Shown: positions 25,223-64,000, numbered from the stretch's first letter. The stretch is DNA of 64,000 bases from Dehalococcoidales bacterium (GCA_034413595.1 DAOUMC010000026.1:1320-65319), one strand, 5' to 3'. The notes: generated by a model not told the origin, from the sequence alone. Program-made: numbers and translations.

Positions 25223-26503
25223 TTGTCTAAGAAGAAACAAACAGGGAAACCCAGGGGTAAGTTTACCGGGCGACAGCTTTCCCGCTGGCAGCAGCAGAAA
25301 AGGAGACAGCGCCTCATTCTGGCGGCTGGTATCTCTGTTATTCTGGCCGTTGTTGGGCTTGTCTTTTCCGGGTTCTACTTCAAATGGTACCTCCCCGACA
25401 TAAAACCGCTGGGGAAAACTGTCCTTGAAGTAAACGGCACCAAGTTTAAGATGGACTACCTCATAGATTCACTCAAATATCAGTTAGGAGAATACTCTTA
25501 TCTGGCACAGTATTACCTTGACCAGGTGATGGGGAGTATCGAGCAGAGTGAGCTTGCTCGGCAGAAGGCTTCAGAACTGGGTATCACCGTCAGTGAAAGC
25601 GAGATTGATGAGAAGATGGCTGGCAGCGGACAGCCCAACAATCAGGCGGTCAGGGACGTGGTCGAGACACAACTGTTGATAGCCAAGCTCAGGGAGGACT
25701 ATTTTGGGCCTCAGATGCCCACTTCCGCTGAGCAAAGGCACGTACTGGCGATTTTCTTGGAGAGCCAGAGCCAGGCTTACGAGGTCAGGGCCCGCCTTGA
25801 GGCCGGTGAAGACCTGGCCAGCATTGCCGACGAGCTTTCTCTAGATAGTGTTACCAAAGAAGATGGCGGTGACCTTGGCTGGAGGCCCAAGGGCGTCTTG
25901 AATGACTTGCTCCAGACCTCTGTTCTTGAAGACCTTGTCTTTAACTACGCATCAGGGGTGTGGAGCAATCCAATAGCTGATGCCGAAAAGACCAAGGGAC
26001 TGGGTTACTGGCTGATAGAGGTCCTGGAGAAAAAAGAGGACCTGAGTCAGGTCCATGTTCGGGCGATGCTCCTGTCCAGTGAAGAGGAGGCGCTGACTAT
26101 AAAAAAGAGGCTGGCAGATGGCGAAGACTTTGACGAGCTGGCCAAGGAGTTTTCCCAGCGATGGTCGGAGGAAAAGGGGGCTGATTTAGGCTGGCTAACC
26201 CCAAACACGATGAGCCAAGCCTTTGACGGTTTTGCTTTTAACCCTGAAACTGAATTGAACGTGGTGAGCTCACCTATCCGGGATGAAACAATCACCACCA
26301 AAGGTGGTTACTGGCTGTTCGAGGTTCTGGAGACAGGCACCCAAGAAATCTCGGATGACAATCGGAATTTGCTGATAGACCAGGCCCTGAATAACTGGTG
26401 GTCGGCGCTACTGGATGACCCAAAGAACAATATTGTCAGCTATCTTGACGAGAGCTTAAGGGAGTTTGCCATCAAGGAGGTTACCGGACAAACCGGAGGT
26501 TGA
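25223..26503 (+). CDS. Membrane-anchored peptidyl-prolyl isomerase (SurA/PrsA-like, two parvulin domains)
   Basis: Basic N-terminus plus a TM helix. Two PpiC-like segments (...GGDLGWRPKG... and ...GADLGWLTPN...). Confidence 0.75.
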   Translation: MSKKKQTGKPRGKFTGRQLSRWQQQKRRQRLILAAGISVILAVVGLVFSGFYFKWYLPDIKPLGKTVLEVNGTKFKMDYLIDSLKYQLGEYSYLAQYYLDQVMGSIEQSELARQKASELGITVSESEIDEKMAGSGQPNNQAVRDVVETQLLIAKLREDYFGPQMPTSAEQRHVLAIFLESQSQAYEVRARLEAGEDLASIADELSLDSVTKEDGGDLGWRPKGVLNDLLQTSVLEDLVFNYASGVWSNPIADAEKTKGLGYWLIEVLEKKEDLSQVHVRAMLLSSEEEALTIKKRLADGEDFDELAKEFSQRWSEEKGADLGWLTPNTMSQAFDGFAFNPETELNVVSSPIRDETITTKGGYWLFEVLETGTQEISDDNRNLLIDQALNNWWSALLDDPKNNIVSYLDESLREFAIKEVTGQTGG

Positions 26504-31791: not shown

Positions 31792-34700
31792 CTATTTCCT
31801 TTCCCTGTATTCAGGCAGGGGCTGGACGCTGAAGCTCTGGCTGCTGTTGGTCAGCACCTCGGCTAGAGCACGGGCGGTGTCCAGAGAGGTAAAGCACGGG
31901 ATTCGTTTCTCGGCGGCCGCCCGGCGTATCTGGAAGCCATCCCGGAAAGGGATGCGACCGCCGGTAGTGGTATTGACCACGCCGTCCACCGTGCCGTCGT
32001 TGATAATATCAACGATATTGGGGTGGCCCTCGCTCAGTTTTTTGCTCATCATTTTCACCGAGAGTCCGGTAGCTTCAATCATGGCCGATGTGCCTTCGGT
32101 GGCATAGAGACGGTAACCGGCATCGGCGAACTTTCTGATTATGGGCAGGGCTTCAGCCTTGTCCCGGTCGGCGATACTGAAAAGCATGGCCCCGTTGGCT
32201 GGCAGCATCAGCCCGGCGGCCAGGAGCGCCTTGGTCAGGGCGACACTGAAGGTGTAGTCGATGCCCATCACCTCGCCGGTGGACTTCATCTCCGGGCCGA
32301 GGTAGGTGTCAACGCCGGCCAGCTTGGACATGGAAAAGACCGGTGCCTTGATGGCTATAAGCTCCCTGCTGGGAAAAAGTCCGCTATTGTAGCCCTGCTC
32401 CTTGAGGCCGATTCCCAGCATGACCTTGGTGGCGACCTCCACCATGGGCACGCCGGTGACCTTGGAGATGAAGGGGATGGTGCGGCTGGCGCGGGGATTG
32501 ACCTCAAGCACATAGACCGTTGGCTTAGCCGAGGCCGGGTCACGGACAATGTCGAACTGGATATTCATGAGGCCTTTAACATTTAGCGCCAGCCCGATGC
32601 GGACAGAATAGTCAACAATAGTCTCTATCTCCTGTTCGTTAAGTCTCACCCCGGGGTAGACCGCCATAGAGTCTCCACTGTGCACCCCGGCCCGTTCGAT
32701 GTGCTCCATTATGCCGGGGATAAGGACACTTTCCCCGTCGCCGACGGCGTCAATCTCAACCTCTTTCCCCAGCAGATATTTGTCGATGAGCACCGGGTGG
32801 CCGGTATCCAGGTCGGTGGCCAGCTTGACGTAGCGCACCAGCTCGCTGGCATCATGGACTATCTCCATCGCCCTGCCGCCCAGCACGTAGCTGGGGCGCA
32901 CCAGCACAGGGTAGCCGATGAGGTTGGCGATGTTCAAGGCTTCGTCAACGGTGGTTACCGCCGCCCCCGGGGCCTGAGGAATACCCAGGCGGCTCAAGAA
33001 GCTCTCAAACCTGCCCCGGTCGCTGGCCAGGTCAATTGTGTCGGCGCTTGAACCCAGCAGTGGCATGCCGGTACGGGAGAGGGGCTGGGACAGGTTGATG
33101 GCCGTCTGACCGCCGAACTGGACGATAGACGGCGGTTTCCCGTTTGTGTTTTGGTTTCCGCCTTCGTTTTCCAGAATGTCCCTGAGGCTCTCTTCGTCCA
33201 GGGTTTCGAAGTAGAGGCGGTCGCTGGTGTCAAAGTCGGTGGAGACCGTCTCCGGGTTGGAGTTGACCATGATGCTCTTAAAGCCCGATTTCTGCAGCGC
33301 CCAGGCGGAGTGGACACTGCAGTAGTCAAACTCGATGCCCTGCCCGATGCGGATGGGCCCGCTGCCGATGACCACCGCCTTGTTTTCTGCCTGGGAGAGG
33401 GCCTCGTTCTCCTGCTCGTAGGTGCTGTAGAAGTAGGGGGTGGCGGCATCAAACTCAGCGGCGCAGGTGTCCACCATCTTGTACACCGGGCGTATGTTCC
33501 AGTCGTGCCTAAGTTTTCTCACCTGCTCCGGCAGCCTGTCGGCCAGAGTGCCCACCTGTTCGTCGGAGAAGCCCAGCCGCTTCGCCGGCAGAAGCAGCTC
33601 CGGCGTCAGCGGCTCCGATAGCAACTTCTTCTCCATGTCCACTATGTTCCTTAGCTTGTCCAGGAACCATAGGTCAATCTTTGTCCTTTCGGCTATCTCC
33701 CGGGTGGTTATCCCTCGCCTCAAGGCTGCCATTATGGCCCACAGTCTTAAGTCGTTGGGTTCAAGGGGATAGTCACTGATGCCTTTTCCCAGCTCCCACA
33801 TTGGGTCTTCCCAGAGGAGTGTCCTCTTGCCGAACTCAAGGGAGCGCACCGCCTTCTGGATGGCGGCTTCAAAGCACCTGTCAATAGCCATCACCTCGCC
33901 GGTGGCTTTCATCTGGGTGCCGATGATGCGGTCGCCGGTGGCGAACTTGTCAAAGGGCCAGCGGGGAATCTTGACCACCAGGTAGTCCAGCGCCGGCTCA
34001 AAAGAGGCCATAGTCTTGCCGGTTACCTGGTTGGGGATTTCGTCCAGCCTCTTGCCGATGGCTATCTTGGCCGCCACCCTGGCGATAGGATAGCCGGTGG
34101 CCTTGCTGGCTAAAGCTGAGCTCCGGCTCACCCTGGGGTTGACCTCGATGACATAGTAAGCCTCGCTCTTAGGGTCGAGGGCGAACTGGATGTTGCAGCC
34201 GCCCTCGATGCCCAGCGCCCGGATAATCTTGAGGCTGGCAGTCCTCAGCATCTGGTACTCCTTGTTGGTCAGGGTCTGGCTGGGGGCGACCACGATACTA
34301 TCGCCGGTGTGGACGCCCATGGGGTCGATGTTCTCCATATTGCACACGGTGATGCAGTTGTCCGCCCCGTCCCGCATCACCTCATACTCTATCTCTTTCC
34401 ACCCGGCCACCGACCTCTCCACCAGCACCTGGTGGATGGGGCTGGTGTGAAGCCCCAGAGCGGCTACGCCGTCTAGCTCCTCCCAGTTGTTTGCCATGCC
34501 GCCCCCCGACCCGCCCAGGGTGTAGGCCGGGCGGATAATGACCGGCAGTCCTATTTCCCTGGTCACCCTTCTGGCTTCTTCCAGGCTGGTCACGGTGGCG
34601 CTGGGGGGCACCGGCTCGCCGATACGGGTTATCAGCTCCTTGAACAGCTCCCTGTCTTCGGCGTTCCTTATTGTCTGGATGGGAGTGCCCAGCGATTTAA

Positions 34701-35031
34701 CATTGTATTTGTCCAGCACACCGGCGTCGGCCAAGTCTACAGCCAGGTTGAGGCCGGTCTGACCGCCCAGGGTGGGCAGCAGTCCGTCGGGGCGCTCGCG
34801 CTCAATGATGCGGGCGACCATATCCACGGTCAGCGGCTCAATATAGACGACATCGGCGATGCCCTCGTCGGTCATGATGGTCGCCGGGTTACTGTTCACC
34901 AGCACCGAGGTCACCCCCTCCTCCCGCATCGCCTTGCACGCCTGGGTTCCGGCGTAGTCAAACTCCGCCGCCTGCCCGATGACGATGGGCCCTGAGCCAA
35001 TGATTAAGACTTTAGAAGGCTTGTTGGTCAA
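31792..35031 (-). CDS. carB: Carbamoyl-phosphate synthase large subunit
   Basis: 1079 aa with duplicated ATP-grasp halves. N-terminus [25 protein letters not shown]. Confidence 0.97.
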
Positions 35032-35046
35032 TGCGGATGCTCCTAT

Positions 35047-35451
35047 TCAAAGTTGAATTTCCCACAATTTGATCCCTATTTCGCTACAGCATTGCTTATG
35101 AGAAGGATAAAAGGAGGGGCAAACTATACCTGTACTCAACCTTTCTTTTTTGACTTTGTATCTATCAGCAAACGAAAACTTATATCTCAATATTTGTCCT
35201 ATGGCCTCATCTAATTGTTCAGGTTTGGTCTTGACTTCTATCAAGTTGTAAGTATTTTCCTGTTCTTCAATAACTATATCTACTTGCCCCGTCTTTGCTG
35301 CATCATAGACTTCTACGGATGTGTAGTAATCTTTTTCAGGAGGAATATAAACTTTTAGGAATTTCATGACAATTTTATCGTGAAGGGTCGGCGGTTTGTG
35401 CACAGCCATACTTTTATAATGACCTTTGACTTCATCATAATCCATATTCAT
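35047..35451 (-). CDS. PD-(D/E)xK nuclease-fold protein (NucS C-terminal-domain-like)
   Basis: GQVDIVIEEQENTYNLIEVKTKPEQLDEAIGQILRY matches the G-x-[IV]-D...[IV]-E-x-K...Q-x-x-x-Y pattern of NucS/DUF91-type nucleases. The codon usage is AT-rich. Confidence 0.55.
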   Translation of the reverse strand: MNMDYDEVKGHYKSMAVHKPPTLHDKIVMKFLKVYIPPEKDYYTSVEVYDAAKTGQVDIVIEEQENTYNLIEVKTKPEQLDEAIGQILRYKFSFADRYKVKKERLSTGIVCPSFYPSHKQCCSEIGIKLWEIQL

Positions 35452-46873: not shown

Positions 46874-47503
46874 ATGTTTACCGGAATCATAGAGGAGATA
46901 GGCACGGTTGTTTCGGTTTCGGCTGGTAAGCTGGTCGTTTCTGCGGGCAAGGTTCTTCAGGGAATAGAGCTCGGGGGAAGCATCAGTGTCAATGGTGCCT
47001 GCCTGACGGTGATCGGGTTTGATGCCGGTTCGTTTACTGTTGACATAATGTTAGAGACACTAGAGCGGACCAATCTTGGCCTGCTGCATGCCGGAGACAG
47101 GGTTAACCTGGAAAGACCACTGACCCTTGATAAGCCATTAGGCGGCCACCTGGTACAGGGGCACGTAGATACCACTGGCAGGGTAGCCTCGGTAATACAG
47201 GAAGGTAAGACAACCAGAATCGGCATTGAAGCCCCGGTCGAAGTGATGTCCTACATAGTCAAAAAGGGGTTTATTGCTGTTGATGGCATCAGCCTGACCG
47301 TGGCTGCTATATATGCCGGTTTCTTTGAGGTTTCTATCGTGGACTATACCCTGAAGAACACCAGTCTGGGCAGCAGAAGAGCGGGCGACCTGGTCAACCT
47401 GGAGGTTGATATTATCGCCAAGTATGTGGAACAATTGGTCAACAAGCCGGGACAGGGAATAACTCTTGATTTCCTGAGGGAGCACGGCTTTGTAGCCGGT
47501 TGA
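46874..47503 (+). CDS. ribE: Riboflavin synthase (alpha chain)
   Basis: [10 protein letters not shown]... with the duplicated lumazine-binding repeat (...GDRVNLE... / ...GDLVNLE...). Confidence 0.92.
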
Positions 47504-55666: not shown

Positions 55667-56629
55667 TTAGCTCAAGATTGCCCTCTTGACAAGTCCTTGG
55701 GCCATGGCAATCTTGTACTTGTTGAGGGGAAGGGCAATTGCCCCACTAAGGGCGGCTGTTGCCGCGGCATCGGCTGTGGCTTCGGAGATGGTATTGCCTA
55801 TAAGGGCATCCGCGGCCCCGGTTGCCAGTCGCGGTGTAGTGGCTACGGCCCCCAGGACAACACGGGCACTGGTAACGTTGCCGGTTGCCGGGGCAATGAC
55901 CATGGCGGCGCTGGCCAGGGCGAAGTCAACAGCTCTCCGTATGGTTGCTTTGGCAAAAGCCTGCTTGCTGCCTGACGGCTGGGTTGGTATCTGGATTTCG
56001 GTGACTATTTCGTCGGCATCTAGCACCGTTGATGTAAAACCATCAAAAAAGGCACTGGCATCAATCGTCTGCTTGGATGTCTTAATCTTGGCATCCAGAG
56101 CGACCAGGGCAGTGCCGGTGTCGCTGATGCTGGCGGCAACACAACCGTTAGTTGCACCGAAAATGGAGTGCTGGAAGCGGTGGTCACCCGTTGTGGCGTA
56201 ACAGATGCCGTTGGGGTTCTTCCTCAGGCAGTTGAACTTGTTCCAGGAAGAGCGGTAGTACCAGCATCTTACTTGCTGGCAGATGTTGCCGCCGATGGTG
56301 CCCATGTTGCGTATCTGCCACGAAGCCACCCTGCCGGCTGCTTGGGCCAGCACACCGTAATTTTGCTGCACTACGGATGAAGTGGCGATGTCGTGGAGTT
56401 TGGTCAGAGCACCAATCTTGAGACCACTGCTGTCCTCGTTGATGTATTCCATGTCCGGGATGGTCTTCAGGTTGATGATGTACTCGGGCAGACTGGGAAG
56501 GCTGAAGTATATCATCTCACCCAGCAGGTCGGTGCCACCGCCAATGACCTTGGCCTTACCGGAATACTGCTGCAGGGCGGATGTCGCTTCGGCTACCGAA
56601 GTGGCGTTTATATTGGTAAATTTCTTCAT
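55667..56629 (-). CDS. Xanthine dehydrogenase family FAD-binding (medium, CoxM/PaoB-like) subunit
   Basis: ...KVIGGGTDLL... and ...IRNMGTIGGNI... are FAD-binding PCMH-type motifs. Confidence 0.88.
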   Translation of the reverse strand: MKKFTNINATSVAEATSALQQYSGKAKVIGGGTDLLGEMIYFSLPSLPEYIINLKTIPDMEYINEDSSGLKIGALTKLHDIATSSVVQQNYGVLAQAAGRVASWQIRNMGTIGGNICQQVRCWYYRSSWNKFNCLRKNPNGICYATTGDHRFQHSIFGATNGCVAASISDTGTALVALDAKIKTSKQTIDASAFFDGFTSTVLDADEIVTEIQIPTQPSGSKQAFAKATIRRAVDFALASAAMVIAPATGNVTSARVVLGAVATTPRLATGAADALIGNTISEATADAAATAALSGAIALPLNKYKIAMAQGLVKRAILS

Positions 56630-56640
56630 TTCTATCCTCC

Positions 56641-58980
56641 TTACGCCTTCCCTAATGCTGCCAGAATCTTGTTGGGGGTTATCATGGTGCTATACACCCG
56701 GGCGCCACAGGCGTTGTAGATGGCATTGGCGATGGCCGGTGCCGGTGACCCACAGGAAGGCTCCGCGATGCCCTTGGCCCCCATTGGGCCAAAGTCGTCG
56801 GGATGCTCGTACAGGTGAGAATTGTACTGGGCCGGTATGTCGGCATAGGTCATTATCTTGTAGTCAAGATAGTTGGGGTTGAGGCTTACGCCGGTGCCCT
56901 CGTCCTTGACCATGCCCTCCATGAGGGCGCGACCCACGGACATGGTGGTGCCGCCGTGAACCTGGTTTATGGCCCCCTTGTACCACGCCGTTCGGCCGAT
57001 GTCCTGACTCGTCCACAGCCCCATGACGGTGACCTCTCCGGTATCGGTGTCAACCTCGACCTCGGCCACGCAGGCGTTCCACATCTGGTGCATCCAGTTG
57101 ATGCGCTTGGTGGCATAGCGGCCGACACCGAGGATCATTCCGTTGGTGTGTGCCGCCGAACCGGTTACCTTAGCCACGTCCACTTTCTTGGTCGGGTCTG
57201 CCTTGACGTAGATTGAATTGTCGGATGTCTCAAGGTCTTCGGGCTTGGTGGCCTCAATGAGACCTGCGTCAATGGCGGTCTGGAACAGCTGTTCCTTGAC
57301 GTCACGGCAGGCCAGAATCACCGCTGTACCCGAGCCCCGGGTCACCCGGCTGCCGCCGGTGCCGACCGATTCCTGGACCTGGTCAGTCTCGTAGGTTGAG
57401 ACGTAAACCTTATCCGGCGTCACTCCCAGCTCTTCGGCCGCCATCAGCTTGAAAGCGGTGCGGTTGCCTGTGCCGACGTCCTGTGAGCCGGTGCTGACCT
57501 GGAAGGTGCCGTCCGGGTTGGCGAAGATGTGGCACGACTCCGGGTTGGCCAGGTATCCGTGCCGGCAGGCACGGTGGAAAATGCCGATGCCCCGCTTCTT
57601 GGCCCCGTTTACCGATACCGGTGTTGTCCAGCCCTTCCATTTATCGTTGAAACCGGAATCCTGGATTATCTTCTGTAGCATTCCGGGGTTGGGATTGCCG
57701 TCCATCTCCCATTCGGGGTGAGCCTTGTTGGCGCCGACTCCTGCCTTGGTGCTGACGTTCTTCAGCAGGAAGTCAGCCGGGCTCATTCCGGCCTGCTCGG
57801 CGGCTGTATCTATGGCCACGCCGATGCAGAAGTCGAACATAGGGTGCTGGACGCAGCGGGGCACGCCGGTGCCGGCGGTATTGGTCACCCAGTCATGACC
57901 TTCCATGTAAAGATTGGGGTTGTTAAACATGTATTCCAGGCCCCTGGGGGCATCCGTAGTGCCGCGACCTCCCCAGCAGCCCGATGCCTGGTTGTTTATG
58001 TCCGAGATGGCGGTTATGGTGCCGTCAGCATCCAGGCCAAACTTGAAAGCGTGGTGCTGTCCCGTCTGGGTGCTCCTGCTGTCACTCATCTCGGCGGGCG
58101 TATCACCCTGGTGCTTCACCGGGCGGTTGAGGTCCCTGGAGGCGTAGGCAGCCATGATGAGCCCCTTGTTGGGAATCCCCTTGCTGCCGAAACCGACCCC
58201 GGCAAAGGTGTAATGATGTACCACCTGAGTGTAGGGCAGGCCTAGCTGGGCGGCTGCCGTCCGGTGCTGCCCGTGGGGGTTCTGGGTGCTGGTCCAGATG
58301 TTGAGGCGGTTGCCGTCCCACAAGCAGGTAACCGATTCACACTCAATGCTGGCAGTGTTGCGGTCGCCGGACCACGGCCGGGTCACGGTGTCAACCGAGA
58401 CCTCGACCACCTTGGCCGCCGAGGCAAAGGCGGCGTCTACGTCGCCTACGTTTACCTTAAAAGCTTTGCCGACCTCGTTAGTGTCGCCGAAGATTATAGG
58501 AGCCCCCGGCTTCATGGAGTCCTCGACGTGCAGGACAAAGGGGAGCTGGTTGTACTCCACCTTGATTAGCGACAACGCTTCCTCGGCTATGTCCTCTTCC
58601 TCGGCTATCACTGCGGCCACGGGCTGGGCTTCCTCGTAGACAGTCTTCTGAAGCACGAACTGGCTAGGCGGCCTGGCTATCAGGTCGGGTACGTCATCGT
58701 GGGTATAGACCTTGATGACGCCGGGTAGAGCCTCGGCCGCTGAGGCATCGATACTGGTCACCTCGGCGTGAGCGTAAGGACTTCTCAGGAACTTGAGATA
58801 GCACAGCTCGGCGAGCAGTATATCGTTGGCAAATTTGGCCTGGCCCCTCACCTTGAGCCCGGCGTCGACCCTGGTCTGCTCCGTGCTGCCCATGTATTTC
58901 AGCGTGGCCAGGTCGTGGTAGATGGAGTGAGGGTACTTCTCATGGGTAAAAGCATCTTCGTGAAAATATTCTTCGTACAT
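56641..58980 (-). CDS. Xanthine dehydrogenase family molybdopterin-binding (large, CoxL/PaoC-like) subunit
   Basis: a/b-hammerhead N-terminus (...VDAGLKVRGQAKFANDI...), 779 aa, ...GGGFG-like GVGFGSKG, C-terminal ...KGIAEP... Confidence 0.92.
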   Translation of the reverse strand: MYEEYFHEDAFTHEKYPHSIYHDLATLKYMGSTEQTRVDAGLKVRGQAKFANDILLAELCYLKFLRSPYAHAEVTSIDASAAEALPGVIKVYTHDDVPDLIARPPSQFVLQKTVYEEAQPVAAVIAEEEDIAEEALSLIKVEYNQLPFVLHVEDSMKPGAPIIFGDTNEVGKAFKVNVGDVDAAFASAAKVVEVSVDTVTRPWSGDRNTASIECESVTCLWDGNRLNIWTSTQNPHGQHRTAAAQLGLPYTQVVHHYTFAGVGFGSKGIPNKGLIMAAYASRDLNRPVKHQGDTPAEMSDSRSTQTGQHHAFKFGLDADGTITAISDINNQASGCWGGRGTTDAPRGLEYMFNNPNLYMEGHDWVTNTAGTGVPRCVQHPMFDFCIGVAIDTAAEQAGMSPADFLLKNVSTKAGVGANKAHPEWEMDGNPNPGMLQKIIQDSGFNDKWKGWTTPVSVNGAKKRGIGIFHRACRHGYLANPESCHIFANPDGTFQVSTGSQDVGTGNRTAFKLMAAEELGVTPDKVYVSTYETDQVQESVGTGGSRVTRGSGTAVILACRDVKEQLFQTAIDAGLIEATKPEDLETSDNSIYVKADPTKKVDVAKVTGSAAHTNGMILGVGRYATKRINWMHQMWNACVAEVEVDTDTGEVTVMGLWTSQDIGRTAWYKGAINQVHGGTTMSVGRALMEGMVKDEGTGVSLNPNYLDYKIMTYADIPAQYNSHLYEHPDDFGPMGAKGIAEPSCGSPAPAIANAIYNACGARVYSTMITPNKILAALGKA

Positions 58981-58996
58981 TTCATACCCTCCTTTT

Positions 58997-59671
58997 CTAG
59001 CCTGCTACCTCAAGAATTGCGTCCACAATGTTGGGATGAGCGCCGCAGCGGCACAGATTGCCGGCCAGGTATTCCCTGACCTGTGTGTCTGTCGGCTTGG
59101 GGATGACACTGAGCAGTGCCTTGGCCGACATCAGCTGGCCCGGGATGCAGAAACCGCACATCATGGCATCGTGGCTGATGAACGCCTGCTGCAGAGGGTG
59201 CAATTCGGCCGAGTCCTTGGCCAGACCCTCGACCGTCTCAACCTCCGTGCCCTCAATCTGGCTGGTCAGCACCATGCACGAGAGGACCGGCCTGCCTTCC
59301 ATGATTACGGTGCATACGCCGCACTCGCCGGAGTCGCAGGCCCTCTTGGTGCCGGTCAGCCCCAGCTTCTCCCGAAGCACGTAGGCAAGGGTCCAGTTAT
59401 CGCTGGTCTTGATGGTGTAGTCTTCGCCGTTTACCTTGAACGATACGATACCCTGAACGGCTGCTCCAGCTACGGTGGTGGTTACCGTTTGCGTTGTTCC
59501 GGGCAGTGTAGTCGTAACTGTCTTGGTTGTCTCAGTGCCCTTGCAGGCAGCCAGAAGCGCTGTTGAACTGACAATGACACCACCGGTGAAGATACCAGCG
59601 TCTTTGAGGAATTCCCTCCTAGATAGCCCCGTCTTTGGTACCTTTTCTTTTCTCTTCTCCTTTTCTGGCAT
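58997..59671 (-). CDS. Xanthine dehydrogenase family [2Fe-2S] (small, CoxS/PaoA-like) subunit with TAT signal and lipobox
   Basis: N-terminal SRREFLK twin-arginine motif, h-region, lipobox LLAAC, Thr-rich linker, then C-x4-C-G-x-C...C and CGFC...C..C ferredoxin motifs. Confidence 0.9.
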   Translation of the reverse strand: MPEKEKRKEKVPKTGLSRREFLKDAGIFTGGVIVSSTALLAACKGTETTKTVTTTLPGTTQTVTTTVAGAAVQGIVSFKVNGEDYTIKTSDNWTLAYVLREKLGLTGTKRACDSGECGVCTVIMEGRPVLSCMVLTSQIEGTEVETVEGLAKDSAELHPLQQAFISHDAMMCGFCIPGQLMSAKALLSVIPKPTDTQVREYLAGNLCRCGAHPNIVDAILEVAG

Positions 59672-60466: not shown

Positions 60467-61216
60467 ATGCTGGTAACCGTTGATAAGGAAATTCTGCATC
60501 AACTAGTGGCTCAGATTGAAGAGGACAAGCTTTCTGTTTTAGACCCCGATTTTGTTCGTGAGATAGTGGAGTCTACCAGGCGTCCGCGAGAGAAGATTCC
60601 GGATGTCACTCAAAGAGCGCTGCCTCCGGAGATTGTCAGGGAAATCATAGGCTACATCCAAAAGGGCGAGTTCAAGGAATCGCCGCGGTGGGCCAGGAAG
60701 CTGACTGCCCACCACTACGCCGAGAAGCTGTTTAAAGGAGCCCTTACCGCCAAGCAGGTAGATGACTGCTACGGCTGTCTTCAGCGTTTTTCCGGATTGT
60801 TCCAGGATGCGGGCTGGGTGGCCTTTCTGGAAGACCCGAATATCCGCTTCAGCCAGAGGAACAAGGTTTTACGCCTGTCCGGGGATAATAAACTGGTGCT
60901 TGACCTGATTTACAGGCTGCTGAACAAGCACGAGACCGACCTGCTGCCGGGCATCGTAGAAGAGTACCATAATCTGCTTCAGGGCATTTCCATTATAAGG
61001 GCAGAGGTCACCACTGCCGTGGCCATCGACCATGCATATGAAAAGAAAATTATCAGATATCTGGAAAGAATGTTTGACACCAGAGTGTTCCCTGCCTTTC
61101 TTGTTGACCCCAAGATACTGGGTGGCATAGTCATCAGGGTGGGTGACAAGGTGCTGGACCACAGCCTTAGAAGCCGGTTACTCCAGCTCAGCAAGACGAT
61201 TAGAGCCGAGCAATAA
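60467..61216 (+). CDS. ATP synthase F1 delta/OSCP-family protein with about 85-aa N-terminal extension, orphan context
   Basis: Residues about 85-249 align by eye with AtpH: HYAEKLF, ...FLEDPNI....K..VL, ...LLNKHETDLLPGIVEEY, ...AEVTTAV..., ...DPKILGGIVIRVGDKVLDHSLRSRL. No other atp genes are nearby. Confidence 0.7.
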   Translation: MLVTVDKEILHQLVAQIEEDKLSVLDPDFVREIVESTRRPREKIPDVTQRALPPEIVREIIGYIQKGEFKESPRWARKLTAHHYAEKLFKGALTAKQVDDCYGCLQRFSGLFQDAGWVAFLEDPNIRFSQRNKVLRLSGDNKLVLDLIYRLLNKHETDLLPGIVEEYHNLLQGISIIRAEVTTAVAIDHAYEKKIIRYLERMFDTRVFPAFLVDPKILGGIVIRVGDKVLDHSLRSRLLQLSKTIRAEQ

Positions 61217-61375
61217 AGGCTGCGGAGAACTTTCTTAATGATACAGGGGTGATAAAGGCTTGCCAGGGTTTATCAACCTCATCGGCGGCTCTGGCCACTG
61301 CCGAGTGTATTGTCGGTCTGGTCGAAGACCTGTTAACATAGAATCAAGAGCCTGTGCTCAGAAAGGAATAAGCGC

Positions 61376-61855
61376 ATGGCAGAAACTGAAAAAGCCGCTC
61401 TTGCCCCGGACTTTACCGCTATTGACTCCGAAGGCAGGACGGTAAAACTGGCGGACTTCAGGGGTAAGAAGCACGTTATTCTGGTGTTTAACCGCGGTTT
61501 TAGCTGACCCTACTGCCGCCGGCATATGGCGCAGTTGCGTCACGATTACCAGAAATTTGTTGACCGAAGTGCCGAGGTCATAGCGGTGGGACCTGAAGAT
61601 AACCAGAGATTTTCCGACTTCTGGCACAAGAAGCGTATGCCCTTTACCGGCATACCCGACCCGGAACACGCTATCGCCAACCTGTATGGACAAAAGGTGA
61701 ACTACTTAAAATTCGGCCGGATGCCGGCTCTTTTTGTCATTGACAGGGAAGGCAGAATTCGTTACCAACACTACGGGAGCTCCATGAGCGATATTCCCGA
61801 AAACAAAGAAGTCCTGTCTCTGCTGGATAAGCTTAACAACGAGACGACGGGATAA
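61376..61855 (+). CDS. Peroxiredoxin-like (AhpC/TSA redoxin fold) thiol oxidoreductase with in-frame UGA, probable selenocysteine (UxxC)
   Basis: ATG 61376 reads 43 codons to TGA 61505-61507 and continues in-frame into the tracked ORF 61526..61855. The joined sequence ...HVILVFNRGFS-U-PYCRRHMAQL... puts the UGA at the first Cys of the RG-x-x-C-P-x-C redox motif. A SECIS-like hairpin follows. Confidence 0.7.
61512..61535 (+). promoter_or_regulatory. SECIS-like hairpin 4 nt downstream of the in-frame UGA
   Basis: ACUGCCGCC-GGCAUAU-GGCGCAGU: 8 bp with one bulged C, and an apical loop beginning GG, 16 nt from the U of the UGA. Confidence 0.5.
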
Positions 61856-61944: not shown

Positions 61945-62553
61945 ATGCCGGACCTGCTTAATACATTTATATTGACCTTCATCCCCCTGTTTATAGTCAT
62001 TGATTCCGTTGGTAGTCTGCCTTTTATCATAACCTTGAGCCAGGGGATGACTGACAGCGAGCGGCGCCGGATGATTCATCTTGCCGTGGCTACCGCGGTC
62101 GTTGTCGGGCTTATCTTTCTCTTCTTCGGGCAGCTTATACTTAATGTTATGAATATCTCCATGGGCTCTTTTGCCATCGCCGGTGGAATCATTCTGCTGG
62201 TGCTGTCAATCAAGTACATGACCACCGGACGAATGGTGGAAGCGGTAAAGGAAGAGATGATAGCCGTGGTGCCTATCGGCACTCCGCTGCTGGCGGGACC
62301 GGCCACAATCACCACCCTGCTTTTGCTGGCGAGCCAGTTCAAAGACCAGCTCTATATGGTTCTTGTCTCCTTCAGCCTGAACATGTTTTTGGCCTGGGTT
62401 ATCTTCCTGGCGAGTGAACGTATTACCCGTTTCATGGGGCAAGGCGGCATCAAGGCGCTGTCCCGGGTATTCAGCCTGCTGCTGGCGGCCATCGCCGTTA
62501 ATATGGTTATCCGGGGCCTTGAACTTATCGGTGTTCTGAGGGGATTGACCTAG
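61945..62553 (+). CDS. marC: MarC family (UPF0056) integral membrane protein
   Basis: ...FIPLFIVIDSVGSLPFI... and six TM segments are typical of MarC. TGGTATAAT lies 7 nt upstream of the ATG with no SD. Confidence 0.85.
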   Translation: MPDLLNTFILTFIPLFIVIDSVGSLPFIITLSQGMTDSERRRMIHLAVATAVVVGLIFLFFGQLILNVMNISMGSFAIAGGIILLVLSIKYMTTGRMVEAVKEEMIAVVPIGTPLLAGPATITTLLLLASQFKDQLYMVLVSFSLNMFLAWVIFLASERITRFMGQGGIKALSRVFSLLLAAIAVNMVIRGLELIGVLRGLT

Positions 62554-62579: not shown

Positions 62580-64000
62580 TTATCCTTTTATCACGCCGAT
62601 TGGCCTGGTCCTGGCGACCATTCTGGAGATGCCGGCGTTGTGGGCAACACCGACCACCTGGGTTACGTCCTTGTAAGCCTCTGAGGCCTCCTCGGCAAGC
62701 CCGGAGATGCTGCCTGCCCGCACCGTTATGCCGCGGGCTTCGAGTGATTTAAGCACTTCCCGTCCGCTCAGGTGTCTCTTGGCGGCCGCCCGGCTCTGCA
62801 TCCGGCCGGCGCCGTGGCATGTGGAGCCGAAGGTATCCCTCATCGCCTGCTCGGTGCCCACCAGGACATAAGATACCCTGCCCATGTCACCGGGAATGAG
62901 GACTGGTTGGCCCACACGGGAATACTTCTCCGGGATGTCAGGATGACCCGGCGGGAAAGCCCGGGTGGCGCCCTTGCGGTGAACACAGAGTGTCTCCTCG
63001 TGACTGTCTAGCTGGTGCTCTTCAATCTTGGCTATGTTGTGGGTGACATCATAGACAAGCTCAAGGCCAGCATCAGCCTGGCACCTGCCCAGCACCTGAC
63101 AGAAGGCTTCCCTGACCCAGTGAGTGATGCACTGGCGGTTGGCCCAGGCGTAGTCGGCGGCACACCTCATGGCCGAAAGATAGGCTTTGCCTTCCGGGGA
63201 ATCTACCGGACTGCAGGCCAGCTGGCGGTCAGGCAGTTCAATGCCATACTTTGCCATGGCCGTCAGCATCTCCTTGATGTAGTCATCGGCCGTCTGATGT
63301 CCCAGTCCGCGTGAGCCGCAGTGGACAAGGAGCATGACCTGCCCTTTCCGGTCAATGCCCAGTTGGTTGGCGATATCAGGCTCGTATATCTGGTCTACCA
63401 CCGCTACCTCAAGGAAGTGGTTGCCGGAACCCAGAGTGCCCAGCTGGGGTATGCCCCTTTCCTTGGCCCGGCTGCTGACGCGTGAAGGGTCGGCACCAGG
63501 CATCTCGCCTCTCTCCTCGGTGGTCTCCAGGTCTTCCTGCCGGCCATAGCCTTTCTCCACCGCCCAGCGCGAGCCCTTGACCAGCACCTCGTCTATTTCA
63601 CCGGAACGCAGTCTTATCTTGCCCTTCGAGCCCAGACCGGAGGGGACGCTGCTGTAGAGGGCGTCAACCAGCTCCTTTATCTTGGGCAAGACCTCTTCCT
63701 GGTCAAGGTTGGTTCTCAGCAGGCGAACGCCGCAGTTGATATCAAAACCGACGCCGCCCGGTGAGATGACGCCGTCCCTTTTCCGCATAGCGGCGACCCC
63801 GCCTATGGGAAAGCCGTAGCCCCAGTGTATATCGGGCATGGCCAGGGAATAGCCGACTATGCCCGGCAGGTGGGCGACGTTGGTCACCTGCTCCGGCGCC
63901 TGCTCGTTCAGAATGTGCTCCAGCATCTCCCGGCTGGCGTAAATAAGCCCAGGCACCCGCATTCCCGGCTTGTAGCTCCTGGGTATGCGCCAGCGGTATT
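62580..64000 (-). CDS. rtcB: RNA-splicing ligase RtcB (5' end beyond the window)
   Basis: ...MRVPGLIYA...QVTNVAHLPGIVGYSLAMPDIHWGYGFPIGGVAA... and ...GSGNHFLE... The frame stays open upstream of the tracked Met (…YRWRIPRSYKPG-MRVPG) to the window edge, matching the N-terminal RtcB region. Confidence 0.95.
   Translation of the reverse strand, partial: YRWRIPRSYKPGMRVPGLIYASREMLEHILNEQAPEQVTNVAHLPGIVGYSLAMPDIHWGYGFPIGGVAAMRKRDGVISPGGVGFDINCGVRLLRTNLDQEEVLPKIKELVDALYSSVPSGLGSKGKIRLRSGEIDEVLVKGSRWAVEKGYGRQEDLETTEERGEMPGADPSRVSSRAKERGIPQLGTLGSGNHFLEVAVVDQIYEPDIANQLGIDRKGQVMLLVHCGSRGLGHQTADDYIKEMLTAMAKYGIELPDRQLACSPVDSPEGKAYLSAMRCAADYAWANRQCITHWVREAFCQVLGRCQADAGLELVYDVTHNIAKIEEHQLDSHEETLCVHRKGATRAFPPGHPDIPEKYSRVGQPVLIPGDMGRVSYVLVGTEQAMRDTFGSTCHGAGRMQSRAAAKRHLSGREVLKSLEARGITVRAGSISGLAEEASEAYKDVTQVVGVAHNAGISRMVARTRPIGVIKG

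What the first reader, a model, noticed from the sequence alone, without database searches (positions are those of the whole stretch)
61376..61855. Hidden selenoprotein: a peroxiredoxin-like gene split by an in-frame UGA (UxxC) with a SECIS-like hairpin
**Seen in the sequence:**
- A well-placed ATG at 61376, preceded by AAAGGAA, opens a frame that hits TGA at 61505-61507.
- The frame then runs on into the tracked ORF 61526..61855.
- The joined product is MAETEKAALAPDFTAIDSEGRTVKLADFRGKKHVILVFNRGFS-[TGA]-PYCRRHMAQLRHDYQKFVDRSAEVIAVGPEDN...
- Four nt after the TGA a hairpin forms (61512-61520 pairs with 61528-61535, one bulged C). Its apical loop GGCAUAU starts 16 nt from the UGA.

**Established knowledge:**
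- AhpC/TSA-type redoxin-fold proteins of this subfamily carry a 'RG-x-W-C-P-x-C' redox motif exactly at this position.
- Thioredoxin-fold UxxC proteins (Prx-like thiol:disulfide oxidoreductases) are a recognised bacterial selenoprotein class.
- Bacterial Sec decoding needs a SelB-binding stem-loop immediately 3' of the UGA, with G in the apical loop.

**Inference:** this is a genuine selenocysteine gene that six-frame and standard gene callers truncate. It implies that selA/selB/selC/selD exist elsewhere in the genome.
Basis: partly seen in the sequence, partly recalled or inferred. Interest (0 to 1): 0.75.

Follow-up and report, generated by a model that had tools for sequence, protein, structure and literature searches.

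The report
Unannotated selenocysteine peroxiredoxin-like redox gene

Summary
ATG 61376 with its ribosome-binding site, an in-frame TGA at 61505-61507 and an open frame to the stop at 61853-61855 give a 159-residue AhpC/TSA-fold protein with a U44-P-Y-C47 motif.

Comparative data strongly support a selenoprotein gene:
- TGA sits at this exact codon in 10/10 related genomes and 77/80 metagenome loci. Rare homologs have Cys there.
- Both halves evolve as coding sequence in one frame.

The conserved element is an overlapping 16-nt stem-loop at 61527-61542 (UGGCGC-AGUU-GCGUCA):
- Its synonymous sites are frozen in 86-88 Sec-forms and relaxed in 7 Cys-forms.
- It meets every criterion of the published bacterial SECIS model.

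No selA, selB, selD or tRNA-Sec lies in the window, so the machinery is untested. TGA is a normal stop for other genes here.

UxxC "Prx-like thiol:disulfide oxidoreductase" selenoproteins are a known family, and Dehalococcoidia are known to be rich in selenoproteins. This is therefore a new, mis-annotated member of a known kind, of modest interest.

The parts
61362..61368 (+). Ribosome-binding site AAAGGAA, 7 nt upstream of the start codon
   Evidence: Read directly from the sequence.
61376..61855 (+). Full selenoprotein CDS: 159 residues (Sec at residue 44) plus stop TAA at 61853-61855. It has an AhpC/TSA (Prx-like) thioredoxin fold.
   Evidence: Translation. Pfam AhpC-TSA scores 94.8 bits against a cutoff of 26, over residues 10-130. 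Codon-position diversity shows a coding signature in one frame on both sides of the TGA.
61505..61507 (+). Sec codon UGA (residue U44)
   Evidence: TGA at the aligned codon in 10/10 genome loci and 77/80 metagenome loci, and TGC in 3. Cys in full-length homologs.
61505..61516 (+). Redox motif U44-P45-Y46-C47. C47 aligns with the peroxidatic Cys of peroxiredoxins and U44 with their conserved Thr.
   Evidence: PDB alignments to 3drn, 2ywn and 5enu. Position 44 is invariant, while position 47 is C, S or T. In the AF2 model of a Cys-form homolog, residue 44 lies immediately before helix 45-56.
61527..61542 (+). Conserved stem-loop H2, the probable SECIS and SelB-binding hairpin. The 5' arm is UGGCGC (61527-61532), the loop is AGUU (61533-61536) and the 3' arm is GCGUCA (61537-61542). 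The loop starts 25 nt after the UGA.
   Evidence: Synonymous entropy collapses at codons +8..+11: GCG 81/82, CAG 84/84, UUG 86/87, CGY 85/86. 97.4% of cells are paired, with only GC<->GU and UA<->UG changes. It is fully paired in 76/86 Sec-forms against 2/7 Cys-forms. It meets the bSECIS model criteria, with a family median of -10.6 kcal/mol and -7.9 in the window (model from PMC13188914).
61512..61535 (+). It is stable in this window but is not a conserved feature of the family, and it competes with H2 for 61528-61535.
   Evidence: -10.6 kcal/mol in the window but a family median of -4.9. Its upper 3 bp are fully formed in only 24/86 Sec-forms and all 8 pairs in 5/86. Its 5' arm lies on freely drifting codons +4 and +5.
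61514..61524 (+). Possible accessory mini-hairpin UGCC-GCC-GGCA (hpA). Its role is uncertain.
   Evidence: 90% of cells are paired across 84 distinct sequences. It is lost when codon +5 is not NGG. The TGC bias at codon +3 is 82/86.
61526..61528 (+). Internal ATG (Met51) that ORF finders take as the start of a truncated 109-aa 'peroxiredoxin'. It lies inside the SECIS region.
   Evidence: ORF list. About 75 of the top 120 database homologs are truncated calls of about 108 aa starting at this Met, as are most of the best cluster representatives.
61586..61855 (+). The 89-aa fragment (GTG start) called in the public annotation of this same sequence. The 43-aa N-terminal fragment 61376-61507 is called separately.
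   Evidence: P0020 and P0121 are both in NCBI and Logan, on the same contigs.

Best explanation
61376-61855 is one gene for a cytoplasmic, 159-residue Prx-like (AhpC/TSA-fold) thiol/selenol oxidoreductase. Its catalytic nucleophile is selenocysteine (U44), encoded by UGA 61505-61507.

Proposed recoding mechanism: when the ribosome reaches the UGA, SelB carrying Sec-tRNA(Sec) is recruited by a small mRNA hairpin 19 nt downstream (61527-61542, a 6-bp stem with an AGUU tetraloop). Sec is then inserted instead of terminating.

Proposed protein chemistry: U44 sits at the N-cap of the first helix and C47 in its first turn. They cycle through a selenenylsulfide, as a thioredoxin-type CxxC does. The protein acts either as a disulfide/peroxide reductase itself or as a reductant for another protein.

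Shown here: gene continuity, UGA/Cys equivalence, the conserved RNA element and its link to the UGA state, and the fold.

Inferred: SelB binding, actual Se incorporation, and the substrate.
For: - One colinear AhpC/TSA domain spans the TGA.
- TGA is at the same codon in 10/10 species-level genomes (Dehalococcoidia, Chloroflexia, one Actinomycetota) and in 77/80 metagenome loci.
- Cys aligns there in true full-length homologs, and position 44 is invariant while position 47 can be C, S or T.
- The codons between the TGA and the next ATG (P-Y/F/H-C-R-x-H) are conserved as amino acids while their codons drift freely (Pro entropy 0.98). They must therefore be translated.
- Third-position diversity is 0.62 upstream and 0.60 downstream, against 0.2-0.3 at positions 1 and 2.
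- Synonymous sites are frozen exactly over 61526-61542 in 87 Sec-forms.
- In Cys-forms that freeze relaxes. Leu is UUG in 85/86 Sec-forms against 3/7 Cys-forms (p=6e-5). H2 is intact in 76/86 against 2/7 (p=0.001).
- H2 satisfies the published bSECIS model: 3-9 nt loop, 4-16 bp stem, G in the first two loop positions followed by G or U, 16-37 nt spacing, and <=-7.5 kcal/mol (PMC13188914).
- TGA terminates ordinary genes in the window, for example at 26501 and 47501.
- The AF2 model of a 67%-identical Cys-form has pLDDT 90.9, with residue 44 just before helix 45-56. Its nearest structures are BCP/Prx, at TM about 0.85.
- UxxC Prx-like selenoproteins and selenoprotein-rich Dehalococcoidia are documented (PMC1794560, PMC13188914, PMC13326102).
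Against: - No selA, selB, selD or tRNA-Sec is in the 64-kb window, and the rest of the genome could not be searched.
- H2 is nearly invariant, so there is no compensatory covariation. RNAalifold does not recover it cleanly: its consensus is -4.8 kcal/mol with a different 4-bp helix.
- In this particular window H1 is predicted to be more stable than H2 (-10.6 against -7.9, with an MFE of -16.8).
- Two of seven Cys-forms keep an intact H2.
- The Sec-versus-Cys statistics ignore phylogenetic relatedness.
- There is no experimental evidence of Se incorporation, and no conserved neighbouring gene to suggest a substrate.
Confidence: 0.9

Rival explanations
1. The reader's hairpin H1 (61512-61535), alone or as the extended MFE helix that includes the UGA, is the functional SECIS in this organism. 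The conserved 61527-61542 patch would then be conserved for another reason.
For: H1 is the more stable structure in this window (-10.6 kcal/mol, extended MFE -16.8) and has G at the first loop position. The lower 5 bp of H1 are fairly conserved.
Against: - All 8 pairs form in only 5 of 86 Sec-forms, and the upper stem pairs in about half.
- The family median energy is -4.9 kcal/mol, and only 26% reach -7.5.
- Its 5' arm lies on codons +4 and +5, which drift freely.
- There are only 13 nt between the UGA and the loop, below the 16-37 nt of the bSECIS model (PMC13188914).
- By inference, the 5' arm would sit in the ribosomal mRNA channel while the UGA is being decoded.
Confidence: 0.08
2. The gene is a pseudogene or an assembly error: a TGC/TGT codon misread or mutated to TGA, with no full-length product.
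For: A single base separates TGA from TGC or TGT. One relative (L099) has TTA at this codon.
Against: TGA recurs in about 90 independent loci and in many more truncated or 'W' database calls. Both halves show purifying selection in frame. A dedicated RNA element co-occurs with the TGA state.
Confidence: 0.01
3. UGA is read by a mechanism other than Sec insertion. The options are genome-wide reassignment (code 4 or 25, giving Trp or Gly) or SECIS-independent near-cognate read-through, which would put Trp, Cys or Arg at position 44.
For: Some public gene calls translate this TGA as W, and one as G. Sec machinery was not observed.
Against: - TGA is the stop codon of ordinary genes in the window.
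- Trp or Gly at the invariant nucleophile of a CxxC motif would inactivate the protein, and true homologs have Cys.
- The hairpin fits the bSECIS model and decays when the codon becomes UGY.
- The two W calls whose DNA was checked sit on very short ENA contigs (673 and 544 bp) and do not translate to the called protein under table 11. The other W-forms are also on contigs of about 0.5-1.7 kb.
Confidence: 0.03
4. The locus is a split gene that gives two separate polypeptides: a 43-aa N-terminal piece, and a 109-aa piece re-initiated at ATG 61526.
For: An ATG lies 6 codons after the TGA and is conserved as Met in 79 of 87 Sec-forms. Public annotation calls two ORFs.
Against: The six codons between the TGA and that ATG include the invariant Pro and the Cys of the redox motif. 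They are conserved at the amino-acid level with synonymous drift, so they are translated. In 8 Sec-forms codon +7 is not ATG. Neither fragment would contain a complete thioredoxin fold or an active site.
Confidence: 0.01

Closest known systems
Prx-like thiol:disulfide oxidoreductase selenoproteins (Kryukov & Gladyshev 2004; Zhang et al. 2006; listed in the 2026 review as PF00578, UxxC/UxxU, reference WP_010940744.1)
   Same: PF00578 AhpC/TSA domain. Sec at the first position of a UxxC redox motif. Cys-containing homologs. SECIS hairpin inside the CDS just 3' of the UGA. Found in anaerobes (PMC1794560, PMC13188914).
   Different: Direct homology to the reference sequences was not tested. This clade comes mainly from Dehalococcoidia/Chloroflexota metagenomes. 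It is overwhelmingly Sec-type rather than Cys-type and has an almost invariant 17-nt SECIS patch.
PRX-like2 (cd02970) / SelL-related redox proteins (NCBIfam NF040769; 'Peroxiredoxin-like family protein, cd02970, UxxS' in PMC13188914)
   Same: NF040769 is the best curated-model hit (E=2e-21). The CxxC-type motif has its second Cys at the Prx peroxidatic position and lacks the Prx Pro/Thr. The UxxS variant seen in relative L007 parallels the catalogued UxxS family.
   Different: It scores 76 bits against a cutoff of 120, so it is not a member of that NCBIfam subfamily. SelL proper has UxxU with two Sec, whereas this protein has one Sec and one Cys.
BCP/PrxQ peroxiredoxins (e.g. PDB 3drn, 3hjp) and the Sec-containing peroxiredoxin family (TxxU)
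   Same: Same fold (TM 0.85-0.90; sequence E=1e-13). C47 aligns with the peroxidatic Cys and R115 with the catalytic Arg.
   Different: The Prx PxxxTxxC signature is absent: Pro is replaced by Arg40 and Thr by Sec44. In Sec-peroxiredoxins the Sec replaces the peroxidatic Cys (TxxU). Here it replaces the Thr three residues earlier (UxxC) (PMC13188914).
E. coli fdhF-type bacterial SECIS (SelB-binding apical hairpin with G-U in the loop)
   Same: A short GC-rich stem capped by a tetraloop with G-U at loop positions 2-3, inside the CDS 3' of the UGA. It fits the consensus bSECIS model (PMC13188914). The comparison with the fdhF loop GGUC rests on my own knowledge.
   Different: There is no bulged U in the stem. 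The loop lies about 7 nt further from the UGA than in fdhF (my own count from the remembered fdhF sequence). SelB binding has not been tested.

Membership tests
Bacterial selenoprotein gene (Sec-UGA plus bSECIS) | In-frame UGA aligned with Cys in homologs, at a catalytic position | tested here: met
   The codon is Cys in P0001, P0003, P0008-P0011, P0016, P0018, P0023 and 10 distant cluster representatives, and it is invariant in the alignment.
Bacterial selenoprotein gene (Sec-UGA plus bSECIS) | UGA conserved in orthologs, with coding-type selection on both sides in one frame | tested here: met
   87 of 90 loci carry TGA. Third-position diversity is 0.62 and 0.60, against 0.2-0.3 at positions 1 and 2, on both sides.
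Bacterial selenoprotein gene (Sec-UGA plus bSECIS) | Stem-loop 3' of the UGA that fits the bSECIS model (3-9 nt loop, 4-16 bp stem, G in the first two loop positions, 16-37 nt spacing, MFE <= -7.5) | tested here: met
H2 at 61527-61542 has loop AGUU, 6 bp and 25-nt spacing. It scores -7.9 kcal/mol here, with a family median of -10.6 and 96% of sequences at or below -7.5 (criteria from PMC13188914).
Bacterial selenoprotein gene (Sec-UGA plus bSECIS) | selA, selB, selD and tRNA-Sec (selC) present in the same genome | not testable with these tools
   They are absent from the 64-kb window: the only tRNA is tRNA-Val, and 20 large ORFs are housekeeping genes. Dehalococcoidia MAGs with 46-49 selenoproteins are on record (PMC13326102).
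Bacterial selenoprotein gene (Sec-UGA plus bSECIS) | Selenium actually incorporated (75Se labelling or mass spectrometry) | not testable with these tools
   Experimental test only.
Prx-like thiol:disulfide oxidoreductase selenoprotein family | AhpC/TSA (PF00578) domain above the gathering threshold | tested here: met
   94.8 bits against a cutoff of 26.
Prx-like thiol:disulfide oxidoreductase selenoprotein family | UxxC or UxxU redox motif with Sec first | tested here: met
   U44-P-Y-C47. The family pattern is U-P-[YFH]-C.
Prx-like thiol:disulfide oxidoreductase selenoprotein family | Sequence homology to the family's reference protein (WP_010940744.1) | not tested
   The reference sequence could not be retrieved with the available tools.
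True peroxiredoxin (Prx) | PxxxT/SxxC active-site signature (Pro at Cp-7, Thr/Ser at Cp-3) | tested here: not met
   In alignments to 3drn, 2ywn and 5enu, C47 aligns with Cp, but Cp-3 is Sec44 and Cp-7 is Arg40.
True peroxiredoxin (Prx) | Conserved catalytic Arg | tested here: met
   R115 is nearly invariant and aligns with the Arg of 3drn.
NCBIfam NF040769 SelL-related redox protein | Score at or above the curated cutoff (120 bits) | tested here: not met
   76.4 bits, matching only profile positions 3-99 of 173. No other NCBIfam model reaches its cutoff.
SelL (UxxU diselenide proteins) | Two Sec residues in a UxxU motif | tested here: not met
   The second position is TGC (Cys) here and in 82 of 86 relatives.

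The most novel reading that the evidence does not exclude
This clade may be a distinct subfamily of PRX-like2/SelL-related redox proteins, centred on Chloroflexota, that almost always uses Sec and is not covered by any curated model. Its near-invariant minimal SECIS (GGCGC-AGUU-GCGYC, 19 nt after the UGA) would then reflect a lineage-specific SelB recognition code. The protein may work as a dedicated selenol reductant for BCP-type peroxiredoxins, as hinted by one Cys-form fused to a canonical BCP domain (P0206).
Probability: 0.2. Interest if true: 0.4.

Novelty: new member of a known kind. Interest (0 to 1): 0.25.

Why it matters
For this genome, two meaningless fragments of 43 and 89 aa become one functional redox enzyme, and the organism is marked as a selenocysteine user.

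More broadly, a whole clade is systematically mis-annotated in public databases. Hundreds of entries are truncated "peroxiredoxins" of about 108 aa, or full-length calls with a false Trp at the active site.

The clade also gives an unusually clean natural experiment for a bacterial SECIS. A 17-nt patch is frozen at synonymous sites when the codon is UGA and drifts when it is UGC or UGU. This could help train selenoprotein predictors and define what the SelB of Chloroflexota recognises.

It does not open a new biological question.

Tried and rejected
- **RNAalifold on 88 Sec-forms** gave a weak, different consensus (-4.8 kcal/mol). The element is too invariant for covariation, so I relied on synonymous-site entropy and the Sec-versus-Cys contrast instead.
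I used the 67%-identical Cys-form P0001 as a proxy.
- **Neighbourhood analysis** of about 90 loci found no conserved partner. The best was an alpha/beta-hydrolase in 12 loci and DegV in 10.
- **Rfam** returned nothing at the locus and only tRNA-Val in the window.
- **Window-wide scan for other TGA-joined frames** (75 candidates) found only adjacent genes or off-frame noise. A scan of all fetched DNA for TGA followed by a bSECIS-like tetraloop hairpin found only this family.
- **A second copy of the H2 motif** in the window: none.
- **tRNA-Sec** in 60 related loci: none.
- **Promoter and terminator scan** was uninformative.
- **BSepDB supplements** are not held, so I could not confirm whether this exact clade is already listed.
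- **Rejected explanations:** pseudogene or assembly error, genome-wide UGA reassignment, and a split gene that makes two polypeptides (see the rival explanations).

Full report
**1. Observation**

- AAAGGAA lies at 61362-61368, 7 nt before ATG 61376.
- The frame hits TGA at 61505-61507.
- It continues without another stop to TAA at 61853-61855, through the ORF 61526..61855 that ORF finders list.
- The joined product has 159 residues, with the TGA at residue 44 in the motif FNRGFS-U-PYC-RRHM.
- The hairpin 61512-61520/61528-61535 (one bulged C, loop GGCAUAU) also exists. ViennaRNA extends it to an MFE of -16.8 kcal/mol for 61505-61560, but this is only marginally better than shuffles (z=-1.9; 9 of 200 fold as well).

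**2. It is one gene**

Against Pfam, the 43-residue N-terminal piece matches AhpC/TSA profile positions 5-33 and the C-terminal ORF matches 45-123. The joined protein scores 94.8 bits (E=4.7e-27) over profile 5-123 of 124. The TGA therefore falls in the roughly 10 profile positions that hold the catalytic motif.

**3. The TGA is conserved, and homologs have Cys there**

- A scan of one genome per species returned 10 relatives: Dehalococcoidales/Dehalococcoidia, "Chloroflexia" and one Actinomycetota MAG. All ten have TGA at exactly this codon (FNRGFx-TGA-P[YH]C...).
- A metagenome scan returned 80 loci, 77 with TGA and 3 with TGC.
- In the protein database the top hits fall into two groups: proteins of about 108 aa that start at the Met just after the TGA (the same truncation), and "full-length" proteins.
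- Of the full-length ones, a minority have Cys at the position (for example P0001, P0003, P0008-P0011, P0016, P0018, P0023).
- Most have "W". The two W-forms I checked at the DNA level are TGA, mis-translated under an alternative code.
- In an exhaustive search of 1.84 billion cluster representatives with the C-terminal ORF, most of the best hits are again truncated calls of about 100-116 aa aligned from residue 1. Of 14 full-length representatives, 10 have Cys, 3 have W and 1 has G.
- Position 44 is invariant in the alignment. The second Cys (C47) is occasionally Ser or Thr: L007 is UxxS, and P0002, P0006, P0165, P0177 and P0207 are CxxT or CxxS. That pattern marks position 44 as the essential nucleophile.

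**4. Both halves are translated in one frame**

I built a codon alignment of 87 unique Sec-forms.
- Amino acids are conserved while synonymous codons vary on both sides of the TGA.
- Per-site diversity at codon positions 1/2/3 is 0.29/0.23/0.62 upstream and 0.33/0.21/0.60 downstream.
- The six codons between the TGA and the next ATG are conserved as P-[YFH]-C-R-x-H with free synonymous drift (Pro codon entropy 0.98). This rules out re-initiation at ATG 61526 as the way the C-terminal part is made.
- TGA is an ordinary stop for other genes in the window, for example at 26501 after a PPIase-domain gene and at 47501. The genome has therefore not reassigned UGA.

**5. Which hairpin is the SECIS?**

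*Synonymous sites.* Across the gene, normalised synonymous-codon entropy is about 0.6-1.0. It collapses at codons +8 to +11 after the UGA:

| Codon after UGA | Residue | Codon usage | Entropy |
|---|---|---|---|
| +8 | Ala | GCG 81/82 | 0.05 |
| +9 | Gln | CAG 84/84 | 0 |
| +10 | Leu | UUG 86/87 (of six possible codons) | 0.04 |
| +11 | Arg | CGC/CGU 85/86 | 0.31 |

The frozen patch (window 61526-61542, AUGGCGCAGUUGCGUCA) forms a 6-bp stem with an AGUU tetraloop, which I call H2.

*Pairing in 84 distinct Sec-forms.*
- H2 is paired in 97.4% of cells. Its only stem changes are G-C to G-U (17 sequences) and U-A to U-G (12 sequences).
All 8 pairs form in 5 of 86 sequences.
- The 5' arm of H1 lies on codons +4 and +5, which drift freely (entropy 0.68 and 0.56).

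*Published bacterial SECIS model.* The criteria are a 3-9 nt apical loop, a 4-16 bp upper stem, G in one of the first two loop positions (usually followed by G or U), 16-37 nt between the UGA and the loop, and MFE <= -7.5 kcal/mol (PMC13188914, Fig. 2A).

| Feature | H2 (61527-61542) | H1 (61512-61535) |
|---|---|---|
| Spacing from UGA to loop | 25 nt | 13 nt |
| Energy in this window | -7.9 kcal/mol | -10.6 kcal/mol |
| Family median energy | -10.6 kcal/mol | -4.9 kcal/mol |
| Share of family at or below -7.5 | 96% | 26% |

H2 meets every criterion. H1 fails on spacing and on the family-wide energy.

*Control with Cys-forms.* I fetched the DNA of seven true Cys-forms.
- In them the freeze relaxes: Leu appears as UUA or CUG, and Ala as GCA.
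- H2 is intact in 2 of 7, against 76 of 86 Sec-forms (Fisher p=0.001).
- Leu is UUG in 3 of 7, against 85 of 86 (p=6e-5).
- These tests ignore phylogenetic non-independence.
- The two Cys-forms with an intact H2 look like the "fossil SECIS" of recent Sec-to-Cys conversions described by Zhang et al. (PMC1794560).

*Caveats.*
- H2 is too invariant for compensatory covariation, and RNAalifold does not recover it cleanly.
- In this window H1 is predicted to out-compete H2.
- My inference is that while the UGA is in the A site, the 5' arm of H1 (7-15 nt downstream) is inside the ribosome. That would free 61528-61535 to form H2.
- A small accessory hairpin UGCC-NNN-GGCA (61514-61524) is paired in 90% of cells, but it disappears when codon +5 is not NGG.

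**6. The protein**

- The best solved relatives are BCP/PrxQ peroxiredoxins (3drn, E=1e-13). In those alignments C47 aligns with the peroxidatic Cys, U44 with the conserved Thr of PxxxTxxC, R40 with the Pro, and R115 with the catalytic Arg.
- The protein therefore has a Prx fold but a thioredoxin-type CxxC logic. It is not a canonical peroxiredoxin.
- An AlphaFold2 model of the Cys-form P0001 (67% identical) has pLDDT 90.9 and places residue 44 immediately before helix 45-56. The window protein itself could not be submitted.
- Foldseek finds BCP/Prx structures at TM about 0.85.
- The best NCBIfam model is NF040769, "SelL-related redox protein", at 76 bits against a cutoff of 120. No curated model claims this protein.
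- It has no signal peptide, and no neighbouring gene is conserved across about 90 loci. The physiological substrate is unknown.
- One distant Cys-form (P0206) is fused to a canonical BCP domain. This is a weak hint of a functional link to peroxiredoxins.

**7. Sec machinery**

- The window holds only tRNA-Val.
- Twenty large ORFs are housekeeping genes: UvrC, EF-G, PcrA, RF-1, pyr genes, a xanthine-dehydrogenase-family trio, ETF and others.
- No other credible TGA-interrupted gene is present.
- Indirect support: the nearest relatives of this gene are Dehalococcoidia, and Dehalococcoidia MAGs with 46-49 selenoproteins are recorded in BSepDB (PMC13326102).

**8. Comparison with what is known, and verdict**

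- "Prx-like thiol:disulfide oxidoreductase" (PF00578; UxxC/UxxU) has been a recognised bacterial selenoprotein family since 2004-2006. A cd02970 "UxxS" peroxiredoxin-like family is also listed (PMC1794560, PMC13188914).
- The window gene meets the testable defining features: the domain, the UxxC motif, Cys homologs and a bSECIS. I could not test direct homology to the reference sequence or the presence of the Sec machinery.
- It fails membership of true Prx (no PxxxT), of NF040769 (below cutoff) and of SelL (no second Sec).
- The finding is real and was well spotted. It is a new, mis-annotated member of a known kind: the source annotation splits it into 43-aa and 89-aa fragments.
- The added value is the corrected SECIS assignment and the observation that the whole clade is mis-annotated, either truncated or given a false Trp.
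- Interest is modest, at 0.25.

Noticed in passing
L097:168-170, L098:187-189 (proteins P0004, P0025); also P0005, P0007, P0012-P0015, P0017, P0019, P0021-P0036 and others: About 33 of 45 'full-length' database homologs carry Trp at the Sec position. The two I checked at the DNA level are TGA, so the gene callers used an alternative code (TGA=Trp) on these short metagenome contigs. One representative (P0264) has Gly there; I did not check it.
   Followed up: partly
L099:327-329 (protein P0041): One relative has TTA (Leu) at the Sec codon, one base away from TGA, and the downstream SECIS hairpin is fully intact. It is either a sequencing error or a recently inactivated allele.
   Followed up: partly
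L092:2630-2677 and L093:430-477: Two true Cys-forms (TGC and TGT) keep a perfect copy of the conserved hairpin. They look like 'fossil SECIS' elements left by recent Sec-to-Cys conversion, as described in PMC1794560.
   Followed up: partly
L007:1270-1281; proteins P0002, P0006, P0165, P0177, P0207: The second Cys of the motif is dispensable in some members: UxxS in L007, and CxxT or CxxS in several Cys-forms. P0207 also has an N-terminal signal-like hydrophobic segment, unlike the cytoplasmic window protein.
   Followed up: no
Protein P0206 (309 aa): A Cys-form of this family (ACPYC) is fused to a canonical BCP/PrxQ peroxiredoxin domain (FYPKDMTPGCT). This domain fusion hints that the family works with peroxiredoxins.
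   Followed up: no
L089:1147-2479: Immediately upstream of a Sec-form gene lies an ABC-type ATPase fused at its C-terminus to a second, Cys-type Prx-like domain (FTRHFGCPQCKEML).
   Followed up: no
L001:2571-2645, L002:2615-2689, L015:1613-1687, L019:2244-2318: In four relatives a tRNA-Gly(UCC) gene lies on the opposite strand upstream of the selenoprotein gene, roughly 0.2-0.3 kb from it in three loci and about 0.8 kb in L015. The window has no such tRNA.
   Followed up: no
window 55667-59671 (- strand): A three-gene xanthine-dehydrogenase/aldehyde-oxidoreductase-family cluster: an FAD subunit at 55667-56629, a molybdopterin subunit at 56641-58980 and a 2Fe-2S subunit at 58997-59671. The small subunit starts with a twin-arginine-like signal (SRREFLKDAG).
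   Followed up: partly
window 60467-61216 (+): The gene just upstream encodes a 249-aa protein whose only recorded Pfam hit is OSCP (ATP synthase delta subunit). None of the neighbouring ORFs whose family was looked up is an ATP synthase gene.
   Followed up: no
window 35047-35451 and 31792-35031 (- strand): A 134-aa ORF lies in the same frame as carB and is separated from it by a single TGA. By eye these are two adjacent genes rather than a read-through. The small ORF has a 'DIVIEE...LIEVK' motif reminiscent of PD-(D/E)xK nucleases.
   Followed up: no
window 62580-63962 (- strand) and beyond (L012:2519-4399): An RtcB RNA ligase gene is followed by an archease gene just past the window end. 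A MarC-family membrane protein gene (61945-62553) separates them from the selenoprotein gene.
   Followed up: no
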